Source: an uncultured virus (IMG/VR IMGVR_UViG_3300050030_000093)
Taxonomy: Duplodnaviria; Heunggongvirae; Uroviricota; Caudoviricetes
DNA: 37,875 nucleotides
Reading direction: 5' to 3' (one strand)
Virus record (IMG/VR): IMGVR_UViG_3300050030_000093
A program made the position numbers and the translations under genes. Below, in pieces: positions 21,818-36,797 of this stretch. The stretch's first letter is position 1, and every line of letters starts with the position of its first letter. Under the pieces are notes generated by a model. It made no database searches. It was not told the DNA's origin and saw nothing but the letters and a program-made list of their open reading frames with translations.

Positions 21818-21818
21818 A

Positions 21819-23390: not shown

Positions 23391-23407
23391 TTTTAAAAAT
23401 TATTTAA

Positions 23408-23425: not shown

Positions 23426-23429
23426 AATA

Positions 23430-23627
23430 TCATTCTTTGTCATGATGACCAGTTGTATTGTTACCCCAAAAACCACTATCAGTGGAATTCTTTACAACAG
23501 GAATATCGTCATCATCTAAGGCATTTAATCTTGCAAACCTTATTTTCTTTTTCTTATTTTTCTCTCTAACAATATTAGCTGCTGTTTCAGTTAAATCGAC
23601 ACCATCATATCTATCTTCTGTTTTCAT
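23430..23627 (-). CDS. Hypothetical protein
   Basis: 65-aa ORF; ATGA overlap with upstream gene. Confidence 0.55.
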   Translation of the reverse strand: MKTEDRYDGVDLTETAANIVREKNKKKKIRFARLNALDDDDIPVVKNSTDSGFWGNNTTGHHDKE

Positions 23628-23932
23628 GATTCTTCAAGTATTATTCTGTTATCAAAACTGCCACGTTCTAATTTTTTCTTCGCTTTTACTTCCTTAATTT
23701 TATCCAAATGAAAATCGTAAAACTTAGCAAGTGCTTCAAGTACTTCCATTACATCAGCAAATTCTTCCAGACTTGGTTTTTCTTTAAATTCCAAGATTTC
23801 TTCTCCAAGTTTTTCGTAGAGTTTTTCAAGAAATTCTTTATCGTCTTTAGCTATATGGTATTTGCAACCCCCGCCAGACCTTTTAATGATTTTAAGAATT
23901 TTATCCCTAACCAGTTTATTATATGTTTTCAT
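23624..23932 (-). CDS. All-alpha NTP pyrophosphohydrolase (MazG-like)
   Basis: YNKLVRDKI...KLGEEILEF...EEFADVMEV...K..ERGSF. Confidence 0.85.
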   Translation of the reverse strand: MKTYNKLVRDKILKIIKRSGGGCKYHIAKDDKEFLEKLYEKLGEEILEFKEKPSLEEFADVMEVLEALAKFYDFHLDKIKEVKAKKKLERGSFDNRIILEES

Positions 23933-24360
23933 ACCTGCAATACCATTCGCATGTCTTCTTTATTATATATTCTGTGGAAGCATCCTTGTCCACAAATTGT
24001 TTGAAAATAGTAACCCTTAAAGAAATAAATCGTACTTGGAAAATGTTTTGGTTCAATTTCTGCTACTTCAATTGGTTCATAATTGTGAACAAGATAATCA
24101 ATCACAAAAGCCAATTTATTATTTGGATATGGCTCATAGCCTTTATGTCCACATTTTTCCAAATAACCGTCATCATGTTCAAGAATCAATCGGTACATCA
24201 GAGTTTCAAAATCATGAGTTTCAAGATATTTTTCGAATTTTCTGTAACGACCATCGGCAATTTTTAATTCCTTTGCCATTTTTTCAATAAACTCATTACG
24301 AATGGCAATACCTTCAGGAGATTCTGCCCATTTTTTCATTTTTTTGTAATCCAAACTCAT
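23929..24360 (-). CDS. Hypothetical protein
   Basis: 143-aa ORF in a translationally coupled run. Confidence 0.7.
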   Translation of the reverse strand: MSLDYKKMKKWAESPEGIAIRNEFIEKMAKELKIADGRYRKFEKYLETHDFETLMYRLILEHDDGYLEKCGHKGYEPYPNNKLAFVIDYLVHNYEPIEVAEIEPKHFPSTIYFFKGYYFQTICGQGCFHRIYNKEDMRMVLQV

Positions 24361-24362
24361 AA

Positions 24363-24554
24363 TTAATTTAATTTTGTTAGTTCAAATTTTCTTTTATATT
24401 CATCAAATTCTTTATCTGACATTTTAAGTAGTCCGTCTGCTAATATTTTGGCTTCAACATCCCTTTTTTTCATAGTATTTGGATGATTCATGTAGAGCAC
24501 AAAAAGTATTGCTTCTTTCGCTCTGTCAAGTTTATTTATTTCTTCGTCAGTCAT
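24363..24554 (-). CDS. Hypothetical protein
   Basis: 63-aa ORF; ATGA overlap. Confidence 0.55.
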   Translation of the reverse strand: MTDEEINKLDRAKEAILFVLYMNHPNTMKKRDVEAKILADGLLKMSDKEFDEYKRKFELTKLN

Positions 24555-25102
24555 AATTTATTTATCCAAAATAACGCAATTTTTTTGCAAAAAGCAACTG
24601 TTTCTTCTTCGGTCATCGAATTTTTCATGTAGTTTATTGGTGTTGACACAAACACCACATTATTTTTTTCATATGGTTTATTCGAATCAACTCGGTCAAG
24701 CGATGCCATTTCAAACATCTGATGTCTTTTTCTTGCTTGAGGTAACTTAAGTTCAATTCCTGTGTATGGACATTTACCGTTTTGTTTATTCCATTGTTCA
24801 AGCAAATCGTCTAATGTTAAATCACCCAAGTTTTTTCTTCGTTTTGCTCTCCTTATAAATTCCCGAAAACCAGTAAATTGGTCTCTTTGAGTTTTACCAT
24901 TAAAATTATCAACATTTCCCTTTCCTATCCAAATGCCCAGATTTTTAATATTTGTTTTTCCAAGGCAACTTTGGGAGCAATAATGTTTTTTACCTTTTGC
25001 TTCCGTTCTTTTTATTTCTGAAACCGCTTTTTCAAACGGAGTATTGCAGTTATAACATATAACTACTGCTGTTTTTCTTTTATACTTTTCCATCTTCCAC
25101 AA
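24551..25102 (-). CDS. Putative HNH/His-Me finger homing endonuclease downstream of tmRNA
   Basis: N-terminal CYNC...YCSQSC; KCPYTG...SLDRVDSNKPYEKNNV...INYMK. Confidence 0.75.
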   Translation of the reverse strand: MWKMEKYKRKTAVVICYNCNTPFEKAVSEIKRTEAKGKKHYCSQSCLGKTNIKNLGIWIGKGNVDNFNGKTQRDQFTGFREFIRRAKRRKNLGDLTLDDLLEQWNKQNGKCPYTGIELKLPQARKRHQMFEMASLDRVDSNKPYEKNNVVFVSTPINYMKNSMTEEETVAFCKKIALFWINKL

Positions 25103-25147
25103 TATTTTATTATAAATACTGTGGAAGTGCGGAAAAGTTTGTGGAAG

Positions 25148-25497
25148 TGGAGCAGAAGGGAGTTGAACCCTTGTCCAGTCATGCGACTAATACGTTTTCT
25201 ACAAGTTTATCTGAATTTTCTAATTCAGCGAAATATCTGATGTTTGCGGAACATCAACAATCCGTCTTGTCTTTTGCTTCCTTAAGCCGGAAGGTTCTTT
25301 GCTGAGTTTTTTGTTTCCTTATGCTGCGATTGCGAGTTCAGCGTTTCTTGCGAATACTGCATTACCTCTCGTAAGAGAAGTTGGAATAGACATTATGTCT
25401 TCTGCGTTTGTTGTTTTGAACCTTTTTAACGTAGTCTGATTCAACTACCACTTGCTTACTATACCACTCTGCCACGCTGTCAAAACCAGGCTGCCCC
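25148..25497 (-). ncRNA. ssrA: tmRNA
   Basis: GGGGCAG/CTGCTCC-A acceptor with G3.U70, TTTTGAC, GGGTTCAACTCCC T arm; internal tag ORF 25319-25405 AEDIMSIPTSLTRGNAVFARNAELAIAA*. Confidence 0.93.
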
Positions 25498-25502
25498 AAT
25501 TA

Positions 25503-25805
25503 TTAATATTCAACGTTTTTATATAATTCCATCCATTTTTTAATAAACATCTTTTCCATGTCATTCGCATCTACAAAAGTAATTTGTGTAAATCCGTATT
25601 TTTCTTTTTTTCTTCCTCTCACACCATGACCAGATTTAATGCCTATAAGTAAATACTTCGGGTCTTTAATTCCCTCAAGTGAGTATGCTTCAAATTCCCG
25701 GTCTTCTGTATAATCTTTGTCGATTAAACATCTAACTACATAACCTTTCTCAGATTTACGAAGAAATATTGCGGGAATGATAATTATCTTATTTACTTCT
25801 TCCAT
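25503..25805 (-). CDS. Hypothetical protein
   Basis: 100-aa ORF. Confidence 0.65.
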   Translation of the reverse strand: MEEVNKIIIIPAIFLRKSEKGYVVRCLIDKDYTEDREFEAYSLEGIKDPKYLLIGIKSGHGVRGRKKEKYGFTQITFVDANDMEKMFIKKWMELYKNVEY

Positions 25806-26061
25806 TTAATTTAGTTTCCAAATATAGGTCACAATCTAAGTGTCCATTCATACATGCCATCAAAGAGCCAAGCATTTGATGTTTCTCAAATTCGCTGTAA
25901 ATGTTCCATGCAACTTCATGTGCTGAACCTTCGAGATTTATTTGAGAAACCAATTCTTTAAAACATATCTTCAAGAACATAAATCTTTTGTCTCTTGTGT
26001 CAAGATGTGTTTCCAGTGCTTTAATTAAAGCATTTTTGCTTTTTTCAGTTATTGTACACAT
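25789..26061 (-). CDS. Hypothetical protein
   Basis: Start placed at MCTITEK, just after the previous stop. Confidence 0.6.
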   Translation of the reverse strand: MCTITEKSKNALIKALETHLDTRDKRFMFLKICFKELVSQINLEGSAHEVAWNIYSEFEKHQMLGSLMACMNGHLDCDLYLETKLNGRSK

Positions 26062-26062
26062 T

Positions 26063-26788
26063 TTATTTACTTTTTTCTGGTTCTTTTCTGAATGACCATT
26101 TATCAAATCCGTGTTGTGTAATCTTATATTTGTCTGCTACTTCCACGATTTCCTTTTCACCCCTGCCAAGTACTCCACCCATGAACATCGAAACTTCTTG
26201 AAATGCTTGTACTGCATCAAAGACTTTGTAAAACTGAAAGTCTTTTAAAAGTGGATTAATAATAAATTTTGAATATTGGTCATTATTTTTTCTTCTGAAA
26301 TAATGCGTTCTTCCATAATCACTGTCATAAACAAATGCAGGACTCTTAAGGTCTCTGAATATTTGCATTGCATTATATGATTGAACATATTTAACACTGT
26401 CTGATATATTACCTTCCCAACTTTTTTCTTCAAGAATATTCAGCATGTATTCTGTGTCATAAGTATATTCTGTACTGACTTCTTCATCTGAATTTATTAC
26501 CCTGTAGAGTTTCCAACCAATGTACAATTTTCCACAAAAACCTAAGATAAAATACGAATGATGATTGCAAATGTTTCGAAATTCTTTTTTCATATTATGA
26601 TAATGCATTGCATGAAAAGGTGTTTTTGCTCGGCTTAAACCCCAATATCCTCTATGTCTTTCAAAGAGCACAGGAATATCGTCTTTTTCGAATTCTTGAG
26701 TTTCTCGCTCATATACAATGGTTTTATCTATACCAGTTGTACCTGCAACGCCATCATAATAATCTTTTCTTTTTGCAATTATATACAT
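26063..26788 (-). CDS. Hypothetical phage protein (241 aa)
   Basis: Long ORF, KDYYD...GFCGK...HGFDKWSFRK. Confidence 0.8.
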   Translation of the reverse strand: MYIIAKRKDYYDGVAGTTGIDKTIVYERETQEFEKDDIPVLFERHRGYWGLSRAKTPFHAMHYHNMKKEFRNICNHHSYFILGFCGKLYIGWKLYRVINSDEEVSTEYTYDTEYMLNILEEKSWEGNISDSVKYVQSYNAMQIFRDLKSPAFVYDSDYGRTHYFRRKNNDQYSKFIINPLLKDFQFYKVFDAVQAFQEVSMFMGGVLGRGEKEIVEVADKYKITQHGFDKWSFRKEPEKSK

Positions 26789-26808
26789 AATCCGACAAAT
26801 TTACTTCA

Positions 26809-26837
26809 TTATACGTAATTAAACAAGAAATGTTACA
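26809..26837 (-). promoter_or_regulatory. Bipartite motif TGTAACA-N13-TACGTATAA (copy 1)
   Basis: Same motif and spacing at 37019-37047; both lie just upstream of minus-strand gene runs. Confidence 0.6.
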
Positions 26838-26856
26838 GATAAATACGAAAATATTT

Positions 26857-27129
26857 CTAAGGTTCTAATCTCCAAATAAATTCTCGTAGCCAATCAACTT
26901 TTCTAAGGGTAATTAAATCATCGAGTTTTTTATAGAGTTCATACTTCTTGATTTCTCTGTCACTAAATGGCTTTCTTCTCTTTTGAATATAATACTTCTT
27001 AAAGAGTTGTTTGTGGAAGTAATTGTAATGTACGAATTTCCACCACAATGTTCTGCGATACCTAAATCTGATTTTGAAGATGTACTCCTTTCTTATTAAG
27101 TTATTACTAATCATTCCTAATTTATCCAA
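26857..27129 (-). CDS. Possible basic hypothetical protein
   Basis: 90-aa ORF filling the gap; TTG start, or ATG at 27114. Confidence 0.4.
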   Translation of the reverse strand: MDKLGMISNNLIRKEYIFKIRFRYRRTLWWKFVHYNYFHKQLFKKYYIQKRRKPFSDREIKKYELYKKLDDLITLRKVDWLREFIWRLEP

Positions 27130-27152
27130 AATTTGAAAATATTAGGAATCTC

Positions 27153-27288
27153 TGAAGTGGTAGTGTACTGCTAACTGATATTGCTCTTAGGCACAGATAA
27201 ATCTGCCCTCAGTGGTCGTTGTGCTCTTAGTTCATTTGGACTGAACGCCAACCTGCAGTACATACCTGCGATTTTTACTATCACTTCA
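27153..27288 (-). ncRNA. Unknown structured RNA at the 3' end of tRNA cluster 3
   Basis: Nested stems TGAAGTGATAGT/ACTACCACTTCA and TGTACTGC/GCAGTACA; two arms each carrying CTAAGAGCA. Confidence 0.6.
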
Positions 27289-27293
27289 TTTTG

Positions 27294-27365
27294 CACGTCT
27301 GGAAGTAATCGAAACCTCATCCACGGGTTTGGGAGCCGTTATCTTAGCCATTAGACGACAGACGT
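27294..27365 (-). tRNA. tRNA-Trp(CCA), atypical (C33, C31.C39 mismatch)
   Basis: ACGTCTG/CAGACGT, G73, ACGGC-TCCCAAA-CCCGT; a Gly(CCC) register is possible but fits worse. Confidence 0.7.
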
Positions 27366-27374
27366 ATTTTATTG

Positions 27375-27447
27375 CACACCGGGAGAGGCTCGAACTCCCG
27401 ACCTTTGCTTTTGGAGAGCACTATTCTACCAACTGAACTACCGATGT
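27375..27447 (-). tRNA. tRNA-Trp(CCA)
   Basis: ACATCGG/CCGGTGT, G73, loop CTCCAAA. Confidence 0.9.
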
Positions 27448-28158
27448 GTTAATTTGTTTTTCATAGAATTTAAGCCATTTACGTATTGTATTATCCGAAA
27501 CGCCATATTTTTTTCCTGTTGCAGTATATCCACCAGAAAAAGTAATATTATTAATTAGTTCACCATATGTTGGTCGTGATTTAACCTTACGTAAATTTTC
27601 ATGATGGCATTTTTGACATTTAGTACTATTATTTTTTATCTGAGCACCACATGAACAATAATTAATGTTTTCATGTTTTTTATATTTTTTCTTATCAACA
27701 TTTTTTCCACAATATGTGGATGTCTGTGAATGACAATTTGGACACAACACTTTTAAATTTTCTAAACGATAATCATTATTAATGCCATTAATGTGGTCTA
27801 AATGCAGACTTAATTTTTCTCCAAACCAAATTTCACTCTGACCACATTTTTCACACTTTCTTTCTTTTAATCCAAATTCAAACAATTTTAGTTTTAATCT
27901 ATGTGTATTAGTATATGTGGAATTAACAACTAAGAATTTTTTAATAAATTCTTCTTTGCTGTATTTTTGATGCAGTTTTTTATTTTTATTCCATCCCATT
28001 CCCAAAAAATGCGATGTATCAATATTATATTCATTGAATTTTTTTAATATTGTTTTATAGTTTCCACCTGCAGGTTTCAATTTAAGTAATTTAAGCACAT
28101 TAGCAATTGAATTACTTTCTTTTACAAATCGTGTTAAAACTTCTTTATTATATTTCAT
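27421..28158 (-). CDS. HNH endonuclease with C-terminal HTH
   Basis: CEKCG...LHLDHINGINNDYRLENLKVLCPNCH; GKKYGVSDNTIRKW; stop inside tRNA-Trp. Confidence 0.92.
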   Translation of the reverse strand: MKYNKEVLTRFVKESNSIANVLKLLKLKPAGGNYKTILKKFNEYNIDTSHFLGMGWNKNKKLHQKYSKEEFIKKFLVVNSTYTNTHRLKLKLFEFGLKERKCEKCGQSEIWFGEKLSLHLDHINGINNDYRLENLKVLCPNCHSQTSTYCGKNVDKKKYKKHENINYCSCGAQIKNNSTKCQKCHHENLRKVKSRPTYGELINNITFSGGYTATGKKYGVSDNTIRKWLKFYEKQINTSVVQLVE

Positions 28159-28258
28159 TTTAGAATTTTATGATAAATACTTTAAAAATCTTAAAAGGTA
28201 TTGTTTTTGCAAATATAATCCTTTAAGTTCGATAATCATATTAAATTCAAAAAATTTG

Positions 28259-28332
28259 TACCCCGTCTCAGATTCGGACTGAGAGAAAACTGCTTTTAAG
28301 ACAGGTATGGTTACCAGTTACATCAACGGGGC
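28259..28332 (-). tRNA. tRNA-Leu(TAA), atypical (short variable loop, TCC T loop)
   Basis: GCCCCGT/ACGGGGT, A73, loop CTTAAAA, 5-nt variable loop, CTCAG-TCCGAAT-CTGAG. Confidence 0.75.
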
Positions 28333-28409
28333 AGTTGTCCTTATTCACGAACCATGACTTCGTGCCTAAGTGTTTGGAACTATTTGCTTCGTTATCCAAA
28401 ATAAGGTCG

Positions 28410-28484
28410 TGCAGATGGCGGGACTCGAACCCATAATCCCCACCGTGAAAGGGTGATGTCCTGAACCAATTAGACGATGGGAAA
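28410..28484 (-). pseudogene. Chimeric pseudo-tRNA-Glu(TTC)
   Basis: Good Glu D and anticodon arms (TCACC-CTTTCAC-GGTGG), but the acceptor strands TTTCCCA / CATCTGC do not pair. Confidence 0.7.
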
Positions 28485-28489
28485 GTTTG

Positions 28490-28561
28490 TACTCGGTGCG
28501 GTAGTCGAAACCGCATTCATAGATTGAGAGTCTATTTTCCTTACCGTTAGAAGAACCGAGC
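28490..28561 (-). tRNA. tRNA-Glu(CTC)
   Basis: GCTCGGT/ACCGAGT, ATAGA-CTCTCAA-TCTAT. Confidence 0.9.
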
Positions 28562-28564
28562 GTG

Positions 28565-28692
28565 TAAATATCTATTCTGCGGTGAAGTTAATTATCTTCT
28601 GAAGTCCTGATGGGGAGCCAGGCGGCACTCTGTCGGTATCCGACATTGCCCTATTCTAACATACTTTCTATCACGTTTACCTAAGATATTTA
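28565..28692 (-). ncRNA. Unknown structured RNA inside tRNA cluster 3
   Basis: 9-bp closing stem TAAATATCT/AGATATTTA; GGCA-TGTCGG/CCGACA-TGCC and CCTGG/TCAGG hairpins. Confidence 0.5.
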
Positions 28693-28695
28693 GCG

Positions 28696-28776
28696 TACAG
28701 CGTGGGGGATTCGAACCCCCGAACCTTTCGGGACAGATTGAAGGTCTGCCTACTTTAGCCGTTTGTATAACGCTGC
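28696..28776 (-). tRNA. tRNA-Glu(TTC), atypical (C33, long variable arm)
   Basis: GCAGCGT/ACGCTGT, GCAGA-CCTTCAA-TCTGT, V-arm CC-GAAA-GG, GGGGG-TTCGAAT-CCCCC. Confidence 0.78.
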
Positions 28777-28800
28777 ATATAATCTCCGAACTGTTTTTTG

Positions 28801-28880
28801 CACCGAGCACCGACTGATTCGACTCGAATCGGTAGCTGACATACGAGCCAGTATTCACCAGTAACCTACTTTCATTCGGT
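28801..28880 (-). ncRNA. tRNA-like RNA with non-canonical arms
   Basis: ACCGA/TCGGT-G-CA acceptor-like end, TGG-containing D-like loop, CTGGC/GTCAG stem with 6-nt loop, extended ACCGA...TCGGT arm. Confidence 0.45.
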
Positions 28881-28888
28881 TGAGATTG

Positions 28889-28963
28889 CACTCCCGGAGG
28901 TATTCGAAACCTCTATTTTACATGGGTGACAGCCAAGTTCTTCACCAAGAAGCCTACGAGAGT
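28889..28963 (-). tRNA. tRNA-Asp(GTC)
   Basis: ACTCTCG/CGGGAGT, G73, loop CTGTCAC. Confidence 0.83.
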
Positions 28964-29592
28964 ATTGTATGTTTATTATAAAATTTAATCCATTTTCTTA
29001 TTGCATTGTCACTTACACCATATTTTTTTCCAGTTCCAGTAAATCCCAATTCTTTTATTTCATTTTGAAGTTGTTCGAATGATGGACGTTTAACTTTACG
29101 TTGAATAACAGATTGTTCTAAACGTGTAATTTTCTTTTTTTTATTTCGTTTTACATTTTTTCCACTAAATGTTGGTAAGGTTGCGTTACAATTAGGACAA
29201 ACAATTCTCAAATTTTCAAGTCTATGGTCATTATTTATCCCATTAATATGGTCAAGAATTAAACTCATGTGTTCACCATGCCAATTTTCATCTTGTCCAC
29301 ATAACTCACATTTACGTTCTTTTATTCCTTCATCATACAATCTTTCTTTTAAATTTGTCGTATTGTATGTTGAGCCAGATATTAATATTTTTGATAGTGG
29401 TGTTTTAATAAATTTATTTGAACGAACATTTCCGTTATTTGTTCCGAAATGTGATATATCAATATTATGTTGATTAATATATTTTTTTATTGTTATTCTA
29501 TTACCGTATAATTTATTACCATATAATTTAAAGCATGTTTCGGTAGTGCTATTTGATTCTGCAATAATTGCTTTTAATTTATCTATGTCCAT
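28954..29592 (-). CDS. HNH endonuclease with C-terminal HTH
   Basis: CELCG...LILDHINGINNDHRLENLRIVCPNCN; start placed at MDIDK after GTATTTAT; stop inside tRNA-Asp. Confidence 0.92.
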   Translation of the reverse strand: MDIDKLKAIIAESNSTTETCFKLYGNKLYGNRITIKKYINQHNIDISHFGTNNGNVRSNKFIKTPLSKILISGSTYNTTNLKERLYDEGIKERKCELCGQDENWHGEHMSLILDHINGINNDHRLENLRIVCPNCNATLPTFSGKNVKRNKKKKITRLEQSVIQRKVKRPSFEQLQNEIKELGFTGTGKKYGVSDNAIRKWIKFYNKHTILS

Positions 29593-29664
29593 AGCAAAGT
29601 GTTTTATATAAATACGTGATAGTTCGGCAAAGATAAACAATAATTATCATATAATCAAACATTG

Positions 29665-29751
29665 CGGTCCCAATGGGATTCGAACCCACCTGTCGGTATT
29701 ATCCGTTCCGGAGTGACAGTCCGGCAGCCACGCCAAGCAGCTCCTGAGACC
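29665..29751 (-). tRNA. tRNA-Asp(GTC), atypical (long variable arm)
   Basis: GGTCTCA/TGGGACC, G73, CCGGA-CTGTCAC-TCCGG, ~18-nt variable region with CGG/CCG stem. Confidence 0.8.
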
Positions 29752-29774
29752 AAATTTCCAACATGTCAAAGAAC
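29752..29774 (-). promoter_or_regulatory. rrn boxA-like element before tRNA cluster 3
   Basis: GTTCTTTGACATGTTGGAAATTT, repeated at 452-474; preceded by a TTGGACAA/TTGTCTAA stem. Confidence 0.6.
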
Positions 29775-29786
29775 TTTAGACAATCT

Positions 29787-29918
29787 TTAAAACTTTTCGA
29801 ACCAAACTTTGCTTGTCCAAGCATTATAGTATTGGTGTTGTCTTGTTGCATAATTACTTCCGATTCTATGTTTGAAGGAAGACCTTATTGCGTGTATAAA
29901 ATATTTAATCGTTTCCAT
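29787..29918 (-). CDS. Possible 43-aa peptide between attenuator 3 and boxA
   Basis: Manual translation METIKYFIHAIRSSFKHRIGSNYATRQHQYYNAWTSKVWFEKF; A-rich upstream context. Confidence 0.4.
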   Translation of the reverse strand: METIKYFIHAIRSSFKHRIGSNYATRQHQYYNAWTSKVWFEKF

Positions 29919-29946
29919 TTTATTTTTCCTTTAATTGTTTAAAAAC

Positions 29947-29979
29947 AAAAAACCCGACCATTTTGCGACAGTCGGGTTT
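29947..29979 (-). terminator. Intrinsic terminator/attenuator 3
   Basis: AAACCCGACTGT-CGCAA-AATGGTCGGGTTTTTT. Confidence 0.85.
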
Positions 29980-30014
29980 CTTTATTAAAGAAAGGAGGTT
30001 GTAATATCAAAGTA

Positions 30015-30107
30015 TTACCCGACTGTACATAGCTTATCCTCTTCGGCTGCCCATAATAGGACATCCACCATGAGGACTGCCATCAATATGTCGAATAATT
30101 TTTTCAT
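30015..30107 (-). CDS. Putative attenuator leader peptide 3 (30 aa, MKKLFDILMAVLMVDVLLWAAEEDKLCTVG)
   Basis: 3' end ACAGTCGGGT (30017-30026) is perfectly complementary to terminator 5' arm ACCCGACTGT (29968-29977). Confidence 0.75.
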   Translation of the reverse strand: MKKLFDILMAVLMVDVLLWAAEEDKLCTVG

Positions 30108-30152
30108 TGTTGTTTCTTTTAAATTTGTTGTTTCTTTCATTTAAATACTTGG

Positions 30153-30182
30153 CAAAGATAGTAAAGTTTTCTTAATTCCAAA
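30153..30182 (-). promoter_or_regulatory. Bacteroidota-type promoter (TTTG-N18-TATCTTTG)
   Basis: Consensus match; downstream CTTTGCCAAGTATTTAA is identical to the locus 1 promoter. Confidence 0.7.
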
Positions 30183-30212
30183 TATTTTTGCAATTATTTT
30201 TTAAAATTATTT

Positions 30213-31253
30213 TTAATAAATAAAATCAAGCCACATTTTTTTGGCTTTTTCATTATAATTATTTAAACTTCTATGCATTAATTTTTTTAATATACACGAG
30301 TGTCGATATTCATACATAAAAATTATTTTTCCTGTAACATCATTATAATCAATTGTTGATGTTTTAAATATTCTTGGCATCCATTCAATTGCTTCGCTAA
30401 CAAGAATTAACTTATTATTATTTATAAAATCAGCAGTAACAATATTAAAACTTTCACTAAATGATAATTGCATACCAATATCCATTTTTTTAATTAAATG
30501 TTGAAATTCTTTATTTTCTTTCCATTCGTGTTTTACAAGTACGTGACGGCTATTAGCAAATAATTCTTCAAGATTTTTTAAAACCGGATTTAATTTAATT
30601 TGATGCTCATCATCATATCCGTCTATTTTTGCTAAAGTGACGTGAAAATGTAATGTTTTGCCAAGAATATCTGCTGCCTTGATTGCACATAATGCTTGAA
30701 ATACAGGATTTTTCAATAATCTTAGTGCACCAAAGCATCCAATATTTATAATATTTGAATTATGTTCTTCATGATTATTATTTTTTTCATGATTAATTGT
30801 GATGACATTTGGTAGGTATGTGAAATCATACCCCATTGCATTTGAAAGATATTTAGTGAAAATTTTGTTATTTGGTGCTATGAATAGGTTTGGTCTATTT
30901 AATGCTATGTAATCATTTACATATTTTAATGCTAATGTTTCTGCACTTAAATATCCAATATCACTATGTATTCTAATAACCCATTTAATGTTTTTATATT
31001 TATTAATTTTGATGAGTTCCTTTAGTTTTTCACCAGTAATCCATAATGCCTCAATAACAACAATATCTGGTTTGTATCCATGAACTTCTTTATCAATACC
31101 ATTGGCATCGATAACTGTAACTACTTTTGTTTCAATACCTTTTAATACATTCAAAAAATTGGCAATATGTGTTGATGAGTTTATTAAACCATATGATTTA
31201 ACATTAGTATTGCCATAGAATCTTTTTTTTAGTATAAATAATATTTTTTTCAT
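30213..31253 (-). CDS. Glycosyltransferase (GT-B/GT4-like)
   Basis: KPDIVVIE, IGCFGALRLLKN, MDIGMQLSFSESFNIVTAD. Confidence 0.75.
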   Translation of the reverse strand: MKKILFILKKRFYGNTNVKSYGLINSSTHIANFLNVLKGIETKVVTVIDANGIDKEVHGYKPDIVVIEALWITGEKLKELIKINKYKNIKWVIRIHSDIGYLSAETLALKYVNDYIALNRPNLFIAPNNKIFTKYLSNAMGYDFTYLPNVITINHEKNNNHEEHNSNIINIGCFGALRLLKNPVFQALCAIKAADILGKTLHFHVTLAKIDGYDDEHQIKLNPVLKNLEELFANSRHVLVKHEWKENKEFQHLIKKMDIGMQLSFSESFNIVTADFINNNKLILVSEAIEWMPRIFKTSTIDYNDVTGKIIFMYEYRHSCILKKLMHRSLNNYNEKAKKMWLDFIY

Positions 31254-31322
31254 TGTATTTTATTATAAATACTAAATAAAGATAAACAATATGCTAAATT
31301 TTAATTAATATTATGCTTGGAA

Positions 31323-31664
31323 TTACTTGCCGCCTACTTTTGCTATTGCATTAACAGGTATTTTCTTTCCGGCATTAGGTTTAACTTCATCAAGTTCTTT
31401 CTTGTCTTTGTGTTCTTCTTTTTCTTCTTCAGGAGTTTCAGACTCTTCGTGTTCGGTAGATTCTTCACCTTCCTTCTTTTCAAAGTTCCACTTTTTCTTA
31501 CCAGAAGTTTTTTTCATATCGTCATCCTTATCTTCATCTTTGTCAACATCGCCCTTTTTCTTGTCGAAGTTCCATTCTGTAAGAAGTTTAGCGTTTGGTT
31601 TGAAATCTGGATTTAATTTAGCCATATTTTCAAATAGCTTTTGTCTGGTATCTGTAGTTTTCAT
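31323..31664 (-). CDS. Highly charged hypothetical protein with RQKLFENM N-terminal motif
   Basis: K/E/D-rich, two WNF(D/E)KK motifs; GTATTTAT at 31680-31687. Confidence 0.7.
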   Translation of the reverse strand: MKTTDTRQKLFENMAKLNPDFKPNAKLLTEWNFDKKKGDVDKDEDKDDDMKKTSGKKKWNFEKKEGEESTEHEESETPEEEKEEHKDKKELDEVKPNAGKKIPVNAIAKVGGK

Positions 31665-31745
31665 AATATTGAATTTATTATAAATACACAGTAATAATAT
31701 AAAAGTTTGGTACAGATATTGCTATTTATATATAAACATAAATTT

Positions 31746-32885
31746 ATGAAAAAAATTTTATTAATTATCTGTCTTTTGCTTTTAGCAAGTATATTATCTG
31801 CACAAAAGAAAACCAATTATGAAAAGTATTGGCAAGCCAGAGAAGACTCAATTACAAAAAGTCAAACGACTTTAAGTAATAATGCAACAGAAAATCAAAT
31901 TACTTCTGCAAAGCCAGAATATGATGACCTTTATTATCAACCAGGTAAAGATATTTCAATTGTCAAGAAGCACAAAAAAGTTAATACTGAAGATACTCTT
32001 AGGGCAATTGTTGATACTCTCGTAAATGAAAATCCAGACATTAGTATTAATTATATGTACAATGATGACCTATTCTTTTATTCAAATCATTTAGGAATGT
32101 TTTATCATGGTGGATTTAATTATTGGCACTATAATCCATTCTTTTACAACCCTTGGTATGATTGGAATTGGAATCCTTATTACGGAAATCCTTGGAGATA
32201 TGGCAATTTGGGATTTTATGATGGTTATTATTTTGGATATAATTCTTATTGGGGTTGGAATTTTGGTTGGAATTGGTATCATCCTTATTATCATAACAAT
32301 TATTGGCACGGTCAGCATAATAACTTTTACGGACGTAATAATGGTTTTAATCAACAACCTCAGTATGGTCATAGAGAAAGACCGTCAAACAATCAAATTG
32401 ATAATAGAAGAACTCAGCCACAAGAAAGAAAAATTACTGGTAGAGACCCTAATAATAGACCCACATATAATAACGAAAGAAGGGCATACACGCCTTCTTA
32501 TAATAATCCCCGTATGAGTACAAGACCACAATATAATAATACTCGTGTTAATTTGATTCGAGAAAATACTAATAGATATCAGACTAATAGTGTTAGACCA
32601 GATGTTAGAAGTCAGCAATATCGTAATACTGAAAATAGAAAAAGCGGTATTCAATCAAATATTCGTGGGTCAGAAACACGTATACCAGTACGCTCATATA
32701 CCACACCATCAAGAAGTTATGGCGAATCACGTACAATTAACAATAATGGTCAAAATAGTGGTGCTAATAGCAGTAGAAGTTTCAGTGGCTCAAATGGTTC
32801 AAGCAATTCAAGTGGTGGCAGAAGTAGCGGTAGTTCAAGTGGTTCGGGTAGTCGTTCAGGAACTTCTGGTACGGGAAGAAGATAA
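31746..32885 (+). CDS. Secreted low-complexity protein (W/Y/G/N-rich middle, R/S/G-rich tail)
   Basis: Signal peptide MKKILLIICLLLLASILSA; YDDLYY motif; resembles Bacteroidota hypothetical proteins. Confidence 0.75.
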   Translation: MKKILLIICLLLLASILSAQKKTNYEKYWQAREDSITKSQTTLSNNATENQITSAKPEYDDLYYQPGKDISIVKKHKKVNTEDTLRAIVDTLVNENPDISINYMYNDDLFFYSNHLGMFYHGGFNYWHYNPFFYNPWYDWNWNPYYGNPWRYGNLGFYDGYYFGYNSYWGWNFGWNWYHPYYHNNYWHGQHNNFYGRNNGFNQQPQYGHRERPSNNQIDNRRTQPQERKITGRDPNNRPTYNNERRAYTPSYNNPRMSTRPQYNNTRVNLIRENTNRYQTNSVRPDVRSQQYRNTENRKSGIQSNIRGSETRIPVRSYTTPSRSYGESRTINNNGQNSGANSSRSFSGSNGSSNSSGGRSSGSSSGSGSRSGTSGTGRR

Positions 32886-32972
32886 TATAAATAATTGGTT
32901 TTTTTGTTTTTACAATTGTTTTGCTGTAGTCGTTTTACAACTGTAACTGTATTTATATTAAAACGAATTGGT

Positions 32973-33431
32973 ATGAAAGAGAATAATGGAAATGTTTGGA
33001 CACTTGAAGCACTTAAAGAGCATTATGAAGCATTAATAAAACTTCAAAATGATGACTTTAACCAACTGCTTAAAGAGCGTGATGAAAGAATGGTTCAGAG
33101 GTATAATTCAATGGAATTGGCAGTTAATAAAGCAGAAGTTGCCACTGAGAAACGTTTCGAAGGTGTTAATGAATTTCGTGCACAACTTGGCGACCAATCG
33201 AGAACACTTATGCCACGTATTGAAACCGAAGTTTTGATTAAGAATATAAATGATAAAATTGAAACATCAAATAAAAGCATAAATGATAAAATTACAGCAT
33301 TAACGACCAAAATAGAAAAGACCGAAAATGTAAAAGCGGGTGGAAGTGCTATGGTTGCATATATTATTGCAGGAATATCGTTAATTATAACCGTTATTAC
33401 ACTTTTGGCAAAATTTGGTGTTATAAAATAA
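32973..33431 (+). CDS. Coiled-coil protein with C-terminal TM helix
   Basis: Start MKENNG after GTATTTAT (32949-32956); hydrophobic C-terminus. Confidence 0.7.
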   Translation: MKENNGNVWTLEALKEHYEALIKLQNDDFNQLLKERDERMVQRYNSMELAVNKAEVATEKRFEGVNEFRAQLGDQSRTLMPRIETEVLIKNINDKIETSNKSINDKITALTTKIEKTENVKAGGSAMVAYIIAGISLIITVITLLAKFGVIK

Positions 33432-33459
33432 ATAATAATTTAAAATTAAAAACAAAAAA

Positions 33460-33897
33460 ATGGAAAAAGGAATTTTAACAGCAGTACAGGAAAAGGAATT
33501 AGCAGTAATGCTTGATGACTTGGTAAAACTTAAAGGACTTTGGGAACTTGTCGATGGATATGTTTTTAAAGTTGTAATTACACTTTTAGACGATACAGTT
33601 ATCGATAAGATAAAAGAAGACATTAAAGTTAAATTAGCTGCTCTTGTGGATGCAGTAATGGCAAAAGACGTTACATTAGCAGAACAATTAGCAACAGATA
33701 TTGTCAATGGTTTAATTGATATTCCCGGTCTTGATGAAGATGCCGAAGGACTTATTTTTGGTGGAATTATTCAATTAGTTGTTGGTGCTATTTTAGCTAA
33801 ACTTCAGTCTATTAAAGGTGAACAGATTACTTTGAAATTGGCTAAACCTCAGATAATTAAAGGTCAACCAATTACTCCGAAATCAGCTAAGAAATAG
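33460..33897 (+). CDS. Hypothetical protein
   Basis: 145-aa helical ORF followed by a hairpin at 33930-33955. Confidence 0.7.
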   Translation: MEKGILTAVQEKELAVMLDDLVKLKGLWELVDGYVFKVVITLLDDTVIDKIKEDIKVKLAALVDAVMAKDVTLAEQLATDIVNGLIDIPGLDEDAEGLIFGGIIQLVVGAILAKLQSIKGEQITLKLAKPQIIKGQPITPKSAKK

Positions 33898-33983
33898 TAG
33901 TAATAACTATACTATGTATTATTTTGTATAAACTTCCGATTTTCACCGGAAGTTTATTGTATTGAAATTAATTAATAAATGTA

Positions 33984-34475
33984 ATGGCAAACGCAAAAGT
34001 TAAGGATGAATTCGACTTAGAAGAAATCAATGAGGACAAAGAATCTAAAGCAACAAAATTATTTAAAAAAATTCTTTGGTATGCAGGTGCTATAATTGTT
34101 GTTGTTCTTGCTATAGGCGGCAGCATTCAATTTCTTGTTAAAAAAGGTATTGATAAAAATGCGAGTACCGAAAAACTTGAAATTATTATTAATACTCAAT
34201 TAGCGCAAAAAAAACTAAGCGATTCAATTCTTGTTAATGTTAAAGAAATTAAAGAATTGGTAAAAGAAAATACTGAGACTGTTGAAGGGTTAAGTAATAG
34301 TTATGTATTGTTTATGCAAAACAATAAATCACTTAGTAAGGATGACTTTCGTAATTACATGGAAGGTGTAACCTGGGAAAGTAAAAAAAAAGCGGTAACT
34401 GAACCTATTGAAGTCAAGGAGGATACGAGCAAATATAGAGGTCATATTATAGTAAATAAATTGGATAAAAAATAA
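33984..34475 (+). CDS. Membrane-anchored hypothetical protein
   Basis: One TM segment, then coiled coil. Confidence 0.7.
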   Translation: MANAKVKDEFDLEEINEDKESKATKLFKKILWYAGAIIVVVLAIGGSIQFLVKKGIDKNASTEKLEIIINTQLAQKKLSDSILVNVKEIKELVKENTETVEGLSNSYVLFMQNNKSLSKDDFRNYMEGVTWESKKKAVTEPIEVKEDTSKYRGHIIVNKLDKK

Positions 34476-34484
34476 AAAATAAAA

Positions 34485-35126
34485 ATGGAAGAAATAACTG
34501 GTGGTACTCAAAATTATGATGATATTCAATGGAATGAAAAAATGTCATTGAATGCGTTTGATGTGGCTTTTATAAAAAATATGTTCAGTCGCCAAGATAA
34601 TATAAAAGAAGCATTTATATCGAATTTGTTGAGAGATAATTACAATGTTCTTGTTAATAAAATTATTAATGAATTAAACACTCGTGAAGAACATACTTTT
34701 GATGCATTAAAATATCAAGAAACTAAGGTACAAGATGCTTTAAGACTTCAAGAAGGCAAAGTAAGAGATGCTTTAAAAGAACAAGAAGGTAGAATTCTTG
34801 CAAGAGTTCATACACAAGAAGATAAAGTTCTTGCGGCATTAGAGGCACAAGAAGATAAAGTTCTTGGTGTTTTGACTGTACAAGAAGGCAAAGTTCTTGG
34901 CGCATTGGGAGTACAAGAGGGTAAGGTTCTCGATGCGGTTAGAAATCAAGAAGATAAAGTTCTTCATGCTTTAGGAAAACAAGAAGGTATTGTTTTTGGC
35001 GTTTTGGCTGTGCAAGAAGGTAAGGTTCTTGATGCTTTGGAAGTACAAGAAAAAAAGGTTCTTGATGCTTTAGATAAGCAAGAAGGTAAAGTTCTTAATG
35101 TTTTAAACGGAAACGGCAAAAAATAA
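34485..35126 (+). CDS. Protein with 12 tandem 11-aa QEGKVLDALxx repeats
   Basis: 33-bp periodicity at 34716-35111. Confidence 0.75.
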   Translation: MEEITGGTQNYDDIQWNEKMSLNAFDVAFIKNMFSRQDNIKEAFISNLLRDNYNVLVNKIINELNTREEHTFDALKYQETKVQDALRLQEGKVRDALKEQEGRILARVHTQEDKVLAALEAQEDKVLGVLTVQEGKVLGALGVQEGKVLDAVRNQEDKVLHALGKQEGIVFGVLAVQEGKVLDALEVQEKKVLDALDKQEGKVLNVLNGNGKK

Positions 35127-35131
35127 AATGC

Positions 35132-36352
35132 ATGAAAGATTCTGCTAAAATACTTCTATTGGATAACTCTGAAATCCAAGCAGAGTTGATTTCTAATTTA
35201 TTGAAAAACAACGAATATACCACAGATATATTAATTGCAAGCGATAGAAAATCCTTCATTTCTATATTAGAAAACAATAAGATTGATGTGATGATATGTA
35301 GTCATGTTTTACCTGAAGGATTTAATTCTTTGGAAGCATTTAGGCTTGCAAAAAGCACATATCCAGACATTTTGTGTATTCTGCTTTCAGGTACAATTAA
35401 TGATGAATTTGCTATTGAGATACTTAAAGAAGGATTTGATGATTATGTCAATAATGACCATTTATCTTTTTTACCGTTTTCAATTGAAAATGCGTATTTA
35501 AAAAATCTGTATAGGGATGAAGTGGCTAATTTGGAAAATGTGAACAAAGAATTAGAAAGGTCATATAAGATAATTGAAGAAGAAAAGAAGACCATAACCC
35601 AAAGCATTATATTTGCGGCAAGAATACAAGCACTAACACTCCCAAAAATTGATTTCTTATTAAAAAATTTTAGTGAAGCATTTGTATTTTATAAACCCAA
35701 AGATATTGTTAGTGGTGATTTTTATTGGTTTGCCGAAAAAAATGGCAATATTATTGTTGTTGTTGCTGATTGTACGGGACATGGTGTGTCTGGTGCGCTA
35801 TTAGCAATGCTTGGCAGTAATTTCTTAAATGAGATTTTGGCAGATGAAACTTGTACCAATAATCCTACAGACATATTAACCAGGCTTGATGCGCATATTT
35901 GTAAAGTATTAAATCAGTCATCCGGTGATGGATATCAAGATGGAATTGATTTAGCATTGATATCAATTAATAAAACCGAAAAGAAAATATATTACTGTGG
36001 ATGCCAGAGGTCATTATTATATTTGATGAAGGGCGAGAAAAAGATTACCACATATAAAGGTAATCCATATTTAGTTGGCGGTGTAGATTATAGAATTGAA
36101 AAAATATTCCCTACACAAGAAATTAAATATGAAACTGATGATGTGATTTACATGTATAGTGATGGTTATGTTGACCAATTTGGCGGGAAAGAAAATAAAA
36201 AGTTATTAAAAGATAATTTCTTCACGTTATTAAATTCTTTTCAGCATCTTGGATTGGAATATCAGTGTCAATTACTCGAACAAAGATTATTAAGATGGAA
36301 AGGCACTAACGACCAAACTGATGACATATTAGTGCTTGGTATTAAACTTTAA
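35132..36352 (+). CDS. Receiver-like domain + PP2C/SpoIIE (RsbU-like) Ser/Thr phosphatase
   Basis: VSGDFY, VADCTGHGVSGA, YSDGYVDQFGG, DQTDDILVLG; N-terminal REC fold. Confidence 0.9.
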   Translation: MKDSAKILLLDNSEIQAELISNLLKNNEYTTDILIASDRKSFISILENNKIDVMICSHVLPEGFNSLEAFRLAKSTYPDILCILLSGTINDEFAIEILKEGFDDYVNNDHLSFLPFSIENAYLKNLYRDEVANLENVNKELERSYKIIEEEKKTITQSIIFAARIQALTLPKIDFLLKNFSEAFVFYKPKDIVSGDFYWFAEKNGNIIVVVADCTGHGVSGALLAMLGSNFLNEILADETCTNNPTDILTRLDAHICKVLNQSSGDGYQDGIDLALISINKTEKKIYYCGCQRSLLYLMKGEKKITTYKGNPYLVGGVDYRIEKIFPTQEIKYETDDVIYMYSDGYVDQFGGKENKKLLKDNFFTLLNSFQHLGLEYQCQLLEQRLLRWKGTNDQTDDILVLGIKL

Positions 36353-36795: not shown

Positions 36796-36797
36796 AA

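What the first reader, a model, noticed from the sequence alone, without database searches (positions are those of the whole stretch)
29665..30182. Second attenuator: leader codons D/L/W/E match the downstream Asp-Asp-Glu-Glu-Leu-Trp-Trp array
Seen, in order: promoter; 30-aa ORF MKKLFDILMAVLMVDVLLWAAEEDKLCTVG; terminator; boxA-like element; tRNA array (27294-29751). The last codons (ACAGTCGGGT) are a perfect 10-nt complement of the terminator 5' arm (ACCCGACTGT). The segment GAT GTC CTA TTA TGG GCA GCC GAA GAG GAT contains a codon for every anticodon in the array: GTC, TAA, CCA, TTC and CTC. The terminator stem differs from loci 1 and 2 (CCCGAC vs CCCGAT) and the antiterminator changes to match, which is covariation within one genome. 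Inference: a multi-input OR gate for several tRNA species.
Basis: partly seen in the sequence, partly recalled or inferred. Interest (0 to 1): 0.93.

Follow-up and report, generated by a model that had tools for sequence, protein, structure and literature searches.

The report
Leader-peptide attenuator gating phage tRNA genes
A tiny translated gene, spelled mostly in the amino acids whose tRNA genes lie behind it, is wired to a stop/go RNA hairpin switch in a giant phage of Bacteroidota, so the phage probably makes this tRNA set only when ribosomes read those codons slowly.

Summary
On the minus strand lie a Bacteroidota-type promoter (30182-30153), a 30-codon ORF (30107-30015), a strong intrinsic terminator (29979-29950 plus T run), a boxA element (29773-29752) and seven tRNA genes (Asp, Asp, Glu, Glu, Leu, Trp, Trp; 29751-27293). 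The last 10 nt of the ORF are a perfect complement of the terminator's 5' arm.

Nineteen distinct homologous leaders from viral contigs keep this design. The antiterminator and terminator helices covary, and tRNA-Asp always comes first. In relatives with full arrays the set is Asp, Glu, Val, Leu, Ala, Trp. These are the amino acids that make up the leader: 17 of 21 core codons in the window.

Three complete relatives carry four such units. Their leaders match four disjoint tRNA arrays that together cover 19 amino acids. True leader/array pairings beat every shuffled pairing, and the match exists only in the ORF's reading frame.

Best reading: a ribosome-mediated transcription attenuator that autoregulates a phage tRNA operon.

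Caveats:
- There are no expression data.
- The window's array has lost its Val and Ala tRNAs.
- The array holds two HNH genes and an internal promoter.
- Leaders do not track recent tRNA losses.

This scan noted the same kind of element before on other DNA. Five literature searches found no published account.

The parts
30153..30182 (-). Promoter of the Bacteroidota type (-33 box 30182-30179, -7 box 30160-30153, 18-nt spacer)
   Evidence: The pattern scan found 11 matches in the window against 3.45 expected, and 0 of 100 shuffles reached 11. The same motif heads loci 1 and 2 and the relatives' units. The consensus itself is recalled from the literature, not taken from a call.
30015..30107 (-). 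Leader ORF, 30 codons plus a TAA stop. An in-frame ATG at 30140 would extend it to 41 codons.
   Evidence: It is conserved as an ORF in 38 loci plus the window, giving 19 distinct DNA versions. Its composition matches its array only in this reading frame.
30090..30098 (-). Segment 1 (codons 4-6): can pair with segment 2, acting as an anti-antiterminator
   Evidence: RNAfold and RNAalifold both predict this pairing. It is paired in 95.3% of cells against 26-45% in slid controls. Both sides are nearly invariant, so there is no covariation evidence.
30036..30065 (-). Sensor cluster, codons 15-24, with Asp, Leu, Trp and Glu codons
   Evidence: It holds a cognate codon for all five anticodons of the array. 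Leu-Leu-Trp and Glu-Asp are invariant in 19 of 19 peptides. The last Asp codon lies 11-13 nt before segment 2's invariant six-base core (30023-30018), even where the reading frame differs (L013, L018).
30017..30026 (-). Segment 2: the antiterminator strand, formed by the last three sense codons and the first base of the stop
   Evidence: It is a perfect 10-nt complement of 29977-29968. The helix is paired in 85.3% of cells, 5 of 10 pairs show changes on both sides, and 0 of 500 shuffles reach the observed score.
29989..29999 (-). Conserved 11-nt copy of the 3' tail of Bacteroidota 16S rRNA (anti-Shine-Dalgarno region); role unknown
   Evidence: It is near-invariant in the family C alignment. 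The same 11 bases end the 16S match in bacterial locus L214.
29941..29979 (-). Intrinsic terminator: segments 3 and 4 (5' arm 29979-29968, 3' arm 29958-29950), then the T run
   Evidence: It is paired in 89.4% of cells, 5 of 12 pairs show changes on both sides, and 0 of 500 shuffles reach the covariation score.
29787..29918 (-). 43-codon ORF inside a 198-nt stretch between terminator and boxA, found only in this phage lineage
   Evidence: present only in the window, L004 and L019. No Pfam match.
29752..29773 (-). boxA element abutting the 5' end of the first tRNA
   Evidence: The 21-mer has exact copies in 21 viral loci. The 18-nt core occurs in 108 bacterial stretches, nearly all Bacteroidota. 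In 10 of 16 of these scanned, it sits 30-50 nt before the 23S rRNA start, in the 16S-23S spacer.
27293..29751 (-). tRNA array Asp(gtc), Asp(gtc), Glu(ttc), Glu(ctc), Leu(taa), Trp(cca), Trp(cca), interrupted by two HNH endonuclease genes
   Evidence: tRNAs; HNH.
29628..29659 (-). Internal promoter-like site just after the first tRNA-Asp and ahead of the HNH gene
   Evidence: It could let six of the seven tRNAs be transcribed without passing the attenuator.

Best explanation
This is a ribosome-mediated (leader-peptide) transcription attenuator heading a phage tRNA operon.

Proposed course of events.
1. Host RNA polymerase starts at the Bacteroidota-type promoter and transcribes the 30-codon leader.
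2. If ribosomes translate the leader quickly to its stop codon, they cover segment 2 (30026-30017). The terminator (29979-29950) then folds and transcription ends before the tRNA genes.
3. If a ribosome is delayed at the Asp, Glu, Leu, Trp, Val or Ala codons of the leader, segment 2 stays free. The cluster at 30065-30036 ends about 12 nt before segment 2. Free segment 2 pairs with the terminator's 5' arm (29977-29968), the terminator cannot form, and polymerase runs on.
4. Polymerase then crosses the boxA element, which probably loads the host rrn antitermination factors, and continues into the tRNA array.
5. With no translation at all, segment 1 (30098-30090) can hold segment 2, and termination wins.

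Because the products are the tRNAs that read the leader, the unit is a negative-feedback supply controller. It would respond when the host tRNA pool is short, mismatched or destroyed.

Shown: the sequence anatomy, the covariation, and the codon/array matching.
Inferred: that the leader is translated, the direction of the switch, and the boxA function.
For: Anatomy. Promoter, ORF, terminator and the 10-nt complement are as described.

Energetics. Terminator and antiterminator folds are close, -28.8 against -25.0 kcal/mol on 30060-29945. The segment 2:3 duplex is -17.1.

Conservation of the switch.
- There are 19 distinct homologous leaders.
- The antiterminator helix has 5 of 10 pairs with compensatory changes, and 0 of 500 shuffles reach its score.
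- The terminator has 5 of 12 such pairs.
- L018 changes the same position in segments 2, 3 and 4 together.
- L013 and L018 read segment 2 in another frame yet keep its distance from the last Asp codon. The constraint is therefore on the RNA, not the peptide's tail.

Link to tRNA.
- tRNA-Asp is the first gene in 19 of 19 loci.
- Full arrays in relatives are Asp, Glu, Val, Leu, Ala, Trp.
- In the window's leader, 19 of 29 codons belong to that set (P = 0.003), and 17 of 21 among codons 4-24 (P < 1e-5).
- At variable peptide columns, 171 of 199 residues stay inside the set. Acidic and hydrophobic residues swap at the same column, and Gly never appears (my count).

Four units per genome. A fourth unit (Pro, His, Gln), predicted from synteny, was found in 3 of 3 complete relatives, with its own matched antiterminator.
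- Amino-acid coverage is complete in 15 of 15 units.
- The codon observed/expected ratio is at least 1.53 in 15 of 15 true pairs and at most 1.38 in 42 of 42 mismatched pairs. The true pairing ranks 1 of 24 in three genomes and 1 of 6 in the window's genome.
- The match is frame-specific: 262 of 476 codons in frame against 75 of 461 and 99 of 461 in the other frames.
- An antiterminator complement of at least 7 nt is present in 14 of 15 units.
- All 15 leaders end in TAA.

boxA. It equals the Bacteroidota rrn spacer element. It lies after the attenuator, as expected if the attenuator must remain sensitive to termination.
Against: - There is no expression, 3'-end or ribosome data. The one attempt to lay metatranscriptome runs returned nothing.
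- Taken alone, the window's match to its own four-amino-acid array is modest: 12 of 29 codons, P = 0.019; 5 of 5 anticodons covered, P = 0.03.
- Seven of the window's 29 leader codons are Val or Ala, but no Val or Ala tRNA gene lies in the array or in the 90 kb examined.
- Leader composition is the same in relatives whose arrays lost Glu, Val, Leu or Ala tRNAs (L063, L068, L069). There is no within-family tracking.
- In the window, a 198-nt insert and an internal promoter-like site at 29659-29628 could feed six of the seven tRNAs independently of the attenuator.
- The family C unit of G004 has only a 5-nt complement.
- Segment 1:2 pairing shows no covariation because both sides are invariant.
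- Strong conservation of the peptide and of synonymous sites (Leu-Leu-Trp, Glu-Asp) could also reflect a nascent-peptide or RNA-structure constraint.
- Whether transcription and translation are coupled tightly enough in Bacteroidota is not known to me.
Confidence: 0.8

Rival explanations
1. Peptide-specific ribosome arrest. The conserved leader peptide would stall the ribosome through its nascent chain, possibly in response to a small molecule (as TnaC or SecM do; recalled). That stall, rather than tRNA supply, would set the switch.
For: Family C peptides are unusually conserved for a leader. Several residues are invariant in 19 of 19, including the single Trp and the Glu-Asp pair. Their codons are nearly invariant at synonymous sites.
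Against: Four unrelated leader peptides each match their own tRNA array. At variable columns residues swap between acidic and hydrophobic but stay within the array's set. No arrest motif is known to me for these sequences.
Confidence: 0.07
2. The small ORF encodes a functional hydrophobic micro-protein with its own terminator. The tRNAs would be expressed by leak-through or from other promoters, and the composition match would be coincidence.
For: The peptide is hydrophobic and conserved. In the window, an internal promoter-like site and a 198-nt insert follow the terminator.
Against: The true leader/array pairing ranks first in all four genomes. Exchanges between hydrophobic and acidic residues do not fit a membrane helix. 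The ORF's end is conserved as RNA even when the frame shifts. Most relatives have only 12-64 nt between terminator and tRNA, with no promoter motif seen there by eye.
Confidence: 0.05
3. An RNA switch that does not need translation, such as a riboswitch or a tRNA- or protein-binding leader of the T-box kind. The ORF would be incidental.
For: Alternative helices exist and covary. A conserved copy of the 16S tail and a small hairpin around the stop codon are unexplained.
Against: No Rfam family, T-box included, reaches its threshold on 29700-30250. The ORF is kept open with start and stop in all 19 versions. The composition match is frame-specific.
Confidence: 0.05
4. A constitutive terminator of a short transcript with no regulatory role. 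The complementarity would be chance or a by-product of repeated terminator-like sequence.
For: Segments 1, 2 and 4 all resemble one another, as would copies of one motif.
Against: The 10-nt complement arose in 0.1% of shuffles. Compensatory changes occur in both helices. boxA and the tRNAs directly follow without a promoter in the relatives.
Confidence: 0.03

Closest known systems
Multivalent leader-peptide attenuators of amino-acid operons (ilvGMEDA with Ile/Leu/Val codons, thr with Thr/Ile; trp, his, leu, pheA) - recalled textbook knowledge
   Same: Promoter, short translated leader, mutually exclusive 1:2 / 2:3 / 3:4 helices, and an intrinsic terminator before the regulated genes. The regulatory codons lie about 12 nt upstream of segment 2. 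More than one amino acid is sensed.
   Different: The regulated genes are tRNAs, not enzymes, so the loop closes on the sensed molecules themselves. The leader samples six amino acids (up to eight or nine in a sister unit) with few tandem runs. It is phage-encoded, in a Bacteroidota setting, and is followed by a boxA. No sequence or Rfam relationship was found.
pheST (phenylalanyl-tRNA synthetase) attenuator - recalled
   Same: A gene of the translation apparatus is controlled by leader-peptide attenuation with codons for its own amino acid.
   Different: It controls a synthetase, senses one amino acid, and is bacterial.
T-box leaders
   Same: They sense tRNA status and switch a terminator/antiterminator upstream of translation-related genes.
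   Different: T-boxes bind uncharged tRNA directly and need no ORF. No T-box match was found here, and an ORF is conserved.
rrn antitermination boxA of Bacteroidota rRNA operons
   Same: The 18-nt core at 29773-29756 is identical to the element lying 30-50 nt before 23S rRNA in 10 of 16 bacterial loci checked.
   Different: Here it sits in a phage, between an attenuator and a tRNA gene. Binding of Nus factors was not tested.
Earlier notes of this scan on other phages (e1-5886956, e1-2978539, e1-5943215, e1-5926040 and others)
   Same: The same design: promoter, codon-matched leader, switchable terminator, tRNA array.
   Different: They concern other genomes. No look-alike of this sequence is in the scan's index. 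Those notes are AI notes that I did not check.

Membership tests
Leader-peptide (ribosome-mediated) transcription attenuator | Short ORF with start and stop between the promoter and the regulated genes, conserved as an ORF | tested here: met
   The ORF is 30107-30015 and is open in 19 of 19 distinct homologues. The promoter motif is at 30182-30153.
Leader-peptide (ribosome-mediated) transcription attenuator | Intrinsic terminator between the leader and the regulated genes | tested here: met
   It is conserved and covaries.
Leader-peptide (ribosome-mediated) transcription attenuator | Antiterminator helix that excludes the terminator and overlaps the end of the ORF | tested here: met
   A 10-nt perfect complement, reached in 0.1% of shuffles. 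Five of 10 pairs are compensatory, and 0 of 500 shuffles reach the score.
Leader-peptide (ribosome-mediated) transcription attenuator | Upstream segment able to sequester the antiterminator strand when the leader is not translated | tested here: inconclusive
   It is predicted by RNAfold and RNAalifold and paired in 95.3% of cells, but there is no covariation.
Leader-peptide (ribosome-mediated) transcription attenuator | Leader enriched in codons that relate to the regulated genes | tested here: met
   For the window alone against its own reduced array the enrichment is modest (P about 0.02-0.03).
Leader-peptide (ribosome-mediated) transcription attenuator | Readthrough depends on leader translation and on supply of the cognate charged tRNA | not testable with these tools
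   No usable RNA data: the call that laid reads returned nothing.
Rfam leader families and T-box | Match to a curated covariance model at its gathering score | tested here: not met
   Only tRNA and tmRNA pass in the window. The best non-tRNA match on 29700-30250 scores 28.5 bits against a threshold of 43. Phe_leader and Leu_leader have E about 8.
rrn boxA antitermination element | Sequence identity with the element in the host-clade rRNA operon spacer or leader | tested here: met
   There are 108 exact bacterial matches, nearly all Bacteroidota. In 10 of 16 scanned, the element lies just before 23S rRNA.
rrn boxA antitermination element | Recruits NusB/NusE and makes polymerase resistant to terminators | not testable with these tools
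   Inference from the E. coli paradigm (recalled).

The most novel reading that the evidence does not exclude
These giant Bacteroidota phages may run a four-channel tRNA homeostat. Nineteen amino acids are divided among four tRNA operons. Each operon sits behind its own leader-peptide attenuator, written in exactly its own amino acids. Each measures ribosome transit time over those codons and releases polymerase, through a borrowed host rrn boxA, only when that part of the decoding capacity falls short. Shortfall could arise, for example, when host defences or host shut-off destroy tRNAs. The unit in the window is the Asp/Glu/Val/Leu/Ala/Trp channel, caught in a lineage whose array is being eroded by homing endonucleases.
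Probability: 0.6. Interest if true: 0.92.

Novelty: new variant of a known kind. Interest (0 to 1): 0.88.

Why it matters
Leader-peptide attenuation is a textbook control for amino-acid synthesis genes. I found no account of it controlling tRNA genes (full-text searches; listings and abstracts only).

If it works as read, phages do not simply carry spare tRNAs. They meter them by a direct test of decoding speed, channel by channel. That would explain:
- why phage tRNA genes are grouped as they are;
- how huge phages cope with tRNA-targeting defences or codon mismatch.

It would also give a compact natural sensor of the supply of specific charged tRNAs, usable as a reporter. The claim can be tested with simple reporter fusions and in-vitro coupled transcription-translation.

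Tried and rejected
RNA evidence.
- Runs holding the stretch are peat metagenomes. Three metatranscriptome runs hold only 5-7% of the sampled words.
There is therefore no evidence on expression either way.

Searches for relatives.
- The phage nucleotide search found only a tRNA-sized match to two 735-kb uncultured phage records.
- The window's own assembly is not held. The nearest record, G001 (83 kb), ends inside the window's range, so the Pro/His/Gln leader of this phage itself could not be seen.
Hits were filtered by context. Three hits that passed that filter (L034, L057, L078) have unrelated peptides and were dropped.

Tests that gave nothing.
- Within-family tracking of leader codons against array content: no association.
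- Pfam on neighbouring ORFs: only the two HNH genes matched. The 346-aa upstream ORF and the 43-codon insert ORF had no match.
- A role of boxA as a promoter was rejected: the spacing does not fit, and the element abuts the tRNA's first base.
- Leaders in front of the Leu/Leu/Met and Ser/Met/suppressor groups: none found.
- boxA also occurs before tRNAs without any leader (L011, L227, L233, L262), so boxA is not specific to attenuated units.

Full report
WHAT IS THERE

Everything lies on the minus strand of an AT-rich window (32% G+C) that carries 14 tRNA genes and a tmRNA by default ARAGORN. The order is:
- a promoter of the Bacteroidota type (-33 box 30182-30179, -7 box 30160-30153);
- a 30-codon ORF (30107-30015, TAA stop);
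- a conserved 11-nt element (29999-29989);
- an intrinsic terminator (stem 29979-29950, T run to about 29941);
- a 198-nt stretch with a 43-codon ORF (29918-29787);
- a 21-nt element that abuts the first tRNA (29772-29752);
- seven tRNA genes, Asp, Asp, Glu(ttc), Glu(ctc), Leu(taa), Trp, Trp (29751-27293).

The promoter pattern occurs 11 times in the window against 3.45 expected, and 0 of 100 shuffles reach 11. The consensus itself is recalled. The terminator is the best-scoring one in 19000-37875, with a hairpin energy of -17.9 kcal/mol.

ORF bases 30026-30017 pair with 29977-29968 in the terminator's 5' arm. A complement this long was reached in 0.1% of 2000 shuffles of the leader.

The array is not contiguous. 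Two HNH endonuclease genes sit in it (29640-28954 and 28158-27421). A promoter-like site (29659-29628) precedes the first of them.

RELATIVES

The 21-mer before the tRNA and a 14-mer of the leader were used to probe viral contigs. After filtering by context, 38 loci plus the window carry a homologous leader with a terminator. Three other hits with unrelated peptides were dropped. These give 19 distinct DNA versions.

The first gene after the terminator is tRNA-Asp(gtc) in all 19 loci with distinct peptides. Except in the window's lineage, the terminator is followed within 12-64 nt by boxA and the tRNA. No promoter motif was seen there by eye, and no formal promoter scan was run on the relatives. 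The tRNAs must therefore be reached by reading through the terminator.

THE SWITCH

On alignment A1 the helices behave as follows.

| Helix | Cells paired | Pairs with changes on both sides | Shuffle control |
|---|---|---|---|
| Antiterminator (segment 2 with segment 3) | 85.3% | 5 of 10 (14 cells) | 0 of 500 reach the score; slid controls 23-48% paired |
| Terminator (segment 3 with segment 4) | 89.4% | 5 of 12 | 0 of 500 reach the covariation score |
| Segment 1 (30098-30090, codons 4-6) with segment 2 | 95.3% | none; both sides invariant | slid controls 26-45% paired |

- L018 changes the same stem position in segments 2, 3 and 4 together.
- The three bases 5' of the invariant core of segment 2 vary, and they change the encoded residue. 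They are matched by the bases 3' of the core in segment 3 in several lineages.
- L013 and L018 read segment 2 in a different frame and stop later. They still keep 11-13 nt between the last invariant Asp codon and segment 2's invariant core. The end of the ORF is therefore conserved as RNA, not as peptide.
- RNAfold and RNAalifold predict the segment 1:2 helix independently. The lack of variation neither supports nor refutes it.
- Terminator and antiterminator folds of 30060-29945 differ by 3.8 kcal/mol (-28.8 against -25.0).

This is the four-segment layout of classical attenuators.

THE CODON MATCH

The 10 codons at 30065-30036 contain a cognate codon for each of the five anticodons. This occurs in 0.09% of random 10-codon windows (chosen after the fact) and in 3% of 29-codon windows.

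The match to the window's own array is modest: 12 of 29 codons are Asp, Glu, Leu or Trp (P = 0.019).

Relatives explain the rest of the leader. Complete arrays are Asp, Glu, Val(tac), Leu(aag, tag, cag, taa), Ala(tgc), Trp. In the window's leader:
- 19 of 29 codons fall in that six-amino-acid set (P = 0.003);
- 17 of 21 codons do so among codons 4-24 (P < 1e-5).

At the variable columns of the 19-peptide alignment:
- 171 of 199 residues stay in the set (my count);
- 18 of the rest are Met;
- acidic and hydrophobic residues replace each other at the same columns;
- Gly never appears, although its codons are one mutation away. Its tRNA lies in another array.

This is hard to reconcile with a peptide selected for its physical properties.

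FOUR CHANNELS

The nearest held record (G001) and three complete relatives (G002-G004, 327-363 kb) show a syntenic tRNA region with four arrays. A rule-based search (terminator plus nearest short ORF) found 15 leader/array units.

| Leader rich in | tRNA array behind it |
|---|---|
| Pro, His, Gln | Pro, His, Gln |
| Asp, Glu, Val, Leu, Ala, Trp | Asp, Glu, Val, Leu, Ala, Trp |
| Lys, Tyr | Lys, Tyr |
| Thr, Cys, Asn, Ile, Ser, Phe, Gly, Arg | Thr, Cys, Asn, Ile, Ser, Phe, Gly, Arg |

- The Pro/His/Gln unit was a prediction from synteny. The window's two tRNA-Gln genes (37589-37794) are that array's tail. The unit was found in 3 of 3 complete genomes, with a different terminator stem and a matching antiterminator.
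- Every unit's leader contains every amino acid of its array (15 of 15).
- Own-set enrichment has P between <5e-5 and 0.035 per unit against random ORF windows.
- The codon observed/expected ratio is at least 1.53 for all 15 true pairs and at most 1.38 for all 42 mismatched pairs. The true pairing ranks first of 24 in each complete genome and first of 6 in the window's genome.
- The match is frame-specific: 262 of 476 codons in frame against 75 of 461 and 99 of 461 in the other frames.
- An antiterminator complement of at least 7 nt is present in 14 of 15 units. The exception is G004's family C unit, with 5 nt.
- In 12 of 15 units the minimum-energy fold pairs segment 2 with a segment inside the ORF. 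In the Pro/His/Gln and Lys/Tyr families that segment overlaps the sensor codons.
- All 15 leaders end in TAA.

boxA

The 18-nt core before the first tRNA has 108 exact matches in bacterial genomes, nearly all Bacteroidota. Of 16 scanned with Rfam, it lies in the 16S-23S spacer 30-50 nt before the 23S start in 10, and directly before tRNA genes in 2.

That is the place of the rrn spacer boxA in the E. coli paradigm (recalled). It also points to a Bacteroidota host, as the promoters do.

The element lies after the attenuator. This fits a design in which polymerase becomes terminator-resistant only once the decision has been taken. That step is inference.

MECHANISM AND CAVEATS

The best reading is a leader-peptide attenuator that autoregulates a tRNA operon. 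Fast translation to the stop masks segment 2 and lets the terminator form. Slow decoding of the set's codons leaves segment 2 free to block the terminator.

Results that weaken the case or limit it:
- There are no expression data.
- The window's array lacks Val and Ala tRNAs and most Leu tRNAs, although the leader keeps their codons.
- Relatives with eroded arrays keep the same leader, so leaders do not track recent losses.
- The insert and the internal promoter in the window may uncouple six of the seven tRNAs.
- The strong conservation of peptide and synonymous sites in this family leaves room for an added nascent-peptide or RNA constraint.

COMPARISON AND NOVELTY

No Rfam family matches: there is no T-box, and the amino-acid leader families score at noise level.

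Five full-text searches found nothing on leader-peptide attenuation of tRNA genes. I saw listings and abstracts only and read no paper.

The scan's own index holds notes of the same design in other phages (76 findings in at least 70 genomes by word search). It holds none on this sequence. Those are unchecked AI notes. They agree with my reading but did not form it.

I class the element as a new variant of a known kind. The mechanism is the classical attenuator. The regulated genes (tRNAs), the closed feedback loop and the multi-amino-acid, array-matched leaders are new.

Noticed in passing
window 554-806 (-) and 13296-13510 (-): Two sister units. One leader is rich in Ser, Thr, Ile, Gly, Arg, Asn, Phe and Cys and precedes tRNA-Cys; in G001 its array continues as Asn, Ile, Ser, Phe, Gly, Thr, Arg. 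The other leader has a run of Tyr and Lys codons, and its terminator ends 12 nt before tRNA-Tyr, followed by two tRNA-Lys. Each has an antiterminator matched to its own terminator.
   Followed up: yes
window 29989-29999 (-): An 11-nt copy of the 3' tail of Bacteroidota 16S rRNA (the anti-Shine-Dalgarno region) lies between the leader's stop and the terminator. It is near-invariant in this leader family and absent from the other three families. Its role is unknown. One fold pairs it with the Glu-Glu-Asp codons.
   Followed up: partly
window 28954-29640 (-), 27421-28158 (-), 29628-29659 (-): Two HNH endonuclease genes are inserted in the tRNA array, and the first has its own promoter-like site. 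Relatives without them have compact, fuller arrays. This suggests that homing endonucleases are eroding the array.
   Followed up: partly
window 29773-29949 (-): A 198-nt insert with a 43-codon ORF (29918-29787) lies between terminator and boxA. It is found only in this lineage (window, L004, L019) and has no Pfam match.
   Followed up: partly
window 29664-29751 (-), 28258-28332 (-): Atypical tRNAs. The first tRNA-Asp is 88 nt with a long extra arm and was missed by Rfam at threshold. tRNA-Leu(taa) is 75 nt and lacks the long variable arm usual for bacterial tRNA-Leu.
   Followed up: no
window 25145-25497 (-): A phage-encoded tmRNA (110 bits) lies downstream of this array. It occupies the same place in the relatives.
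   Followed up: no
G001 39516-39588 (-); also G002, G003, G004: A tRNA with anticodon cta (an amber suppressor, which ARAGORN labels Pyl) lies at the far end of the tRNA region. This suggests TAG may be read as sense in part of the genome. All 15 leaders end in TAA.
   Followed up: no
window 37672-37701 (-): A promoter-like site lies directly before the second tRNA-Gln, so not every tRNA depends on an attenuator.
   Followed up: no
window 21711-21817 (-): A 107-nt tRNA-like match (Rfam 34 bits) follows an HNH-like ORF and was not called by ARAGORN. It may contain an intron or be degenerate.
   Followed up: no
L011, L227, L233, L262: The same boxA core directly precedes tRNA genes with no leader or terminator in the 400 nt upstream.
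   Followed up: partly
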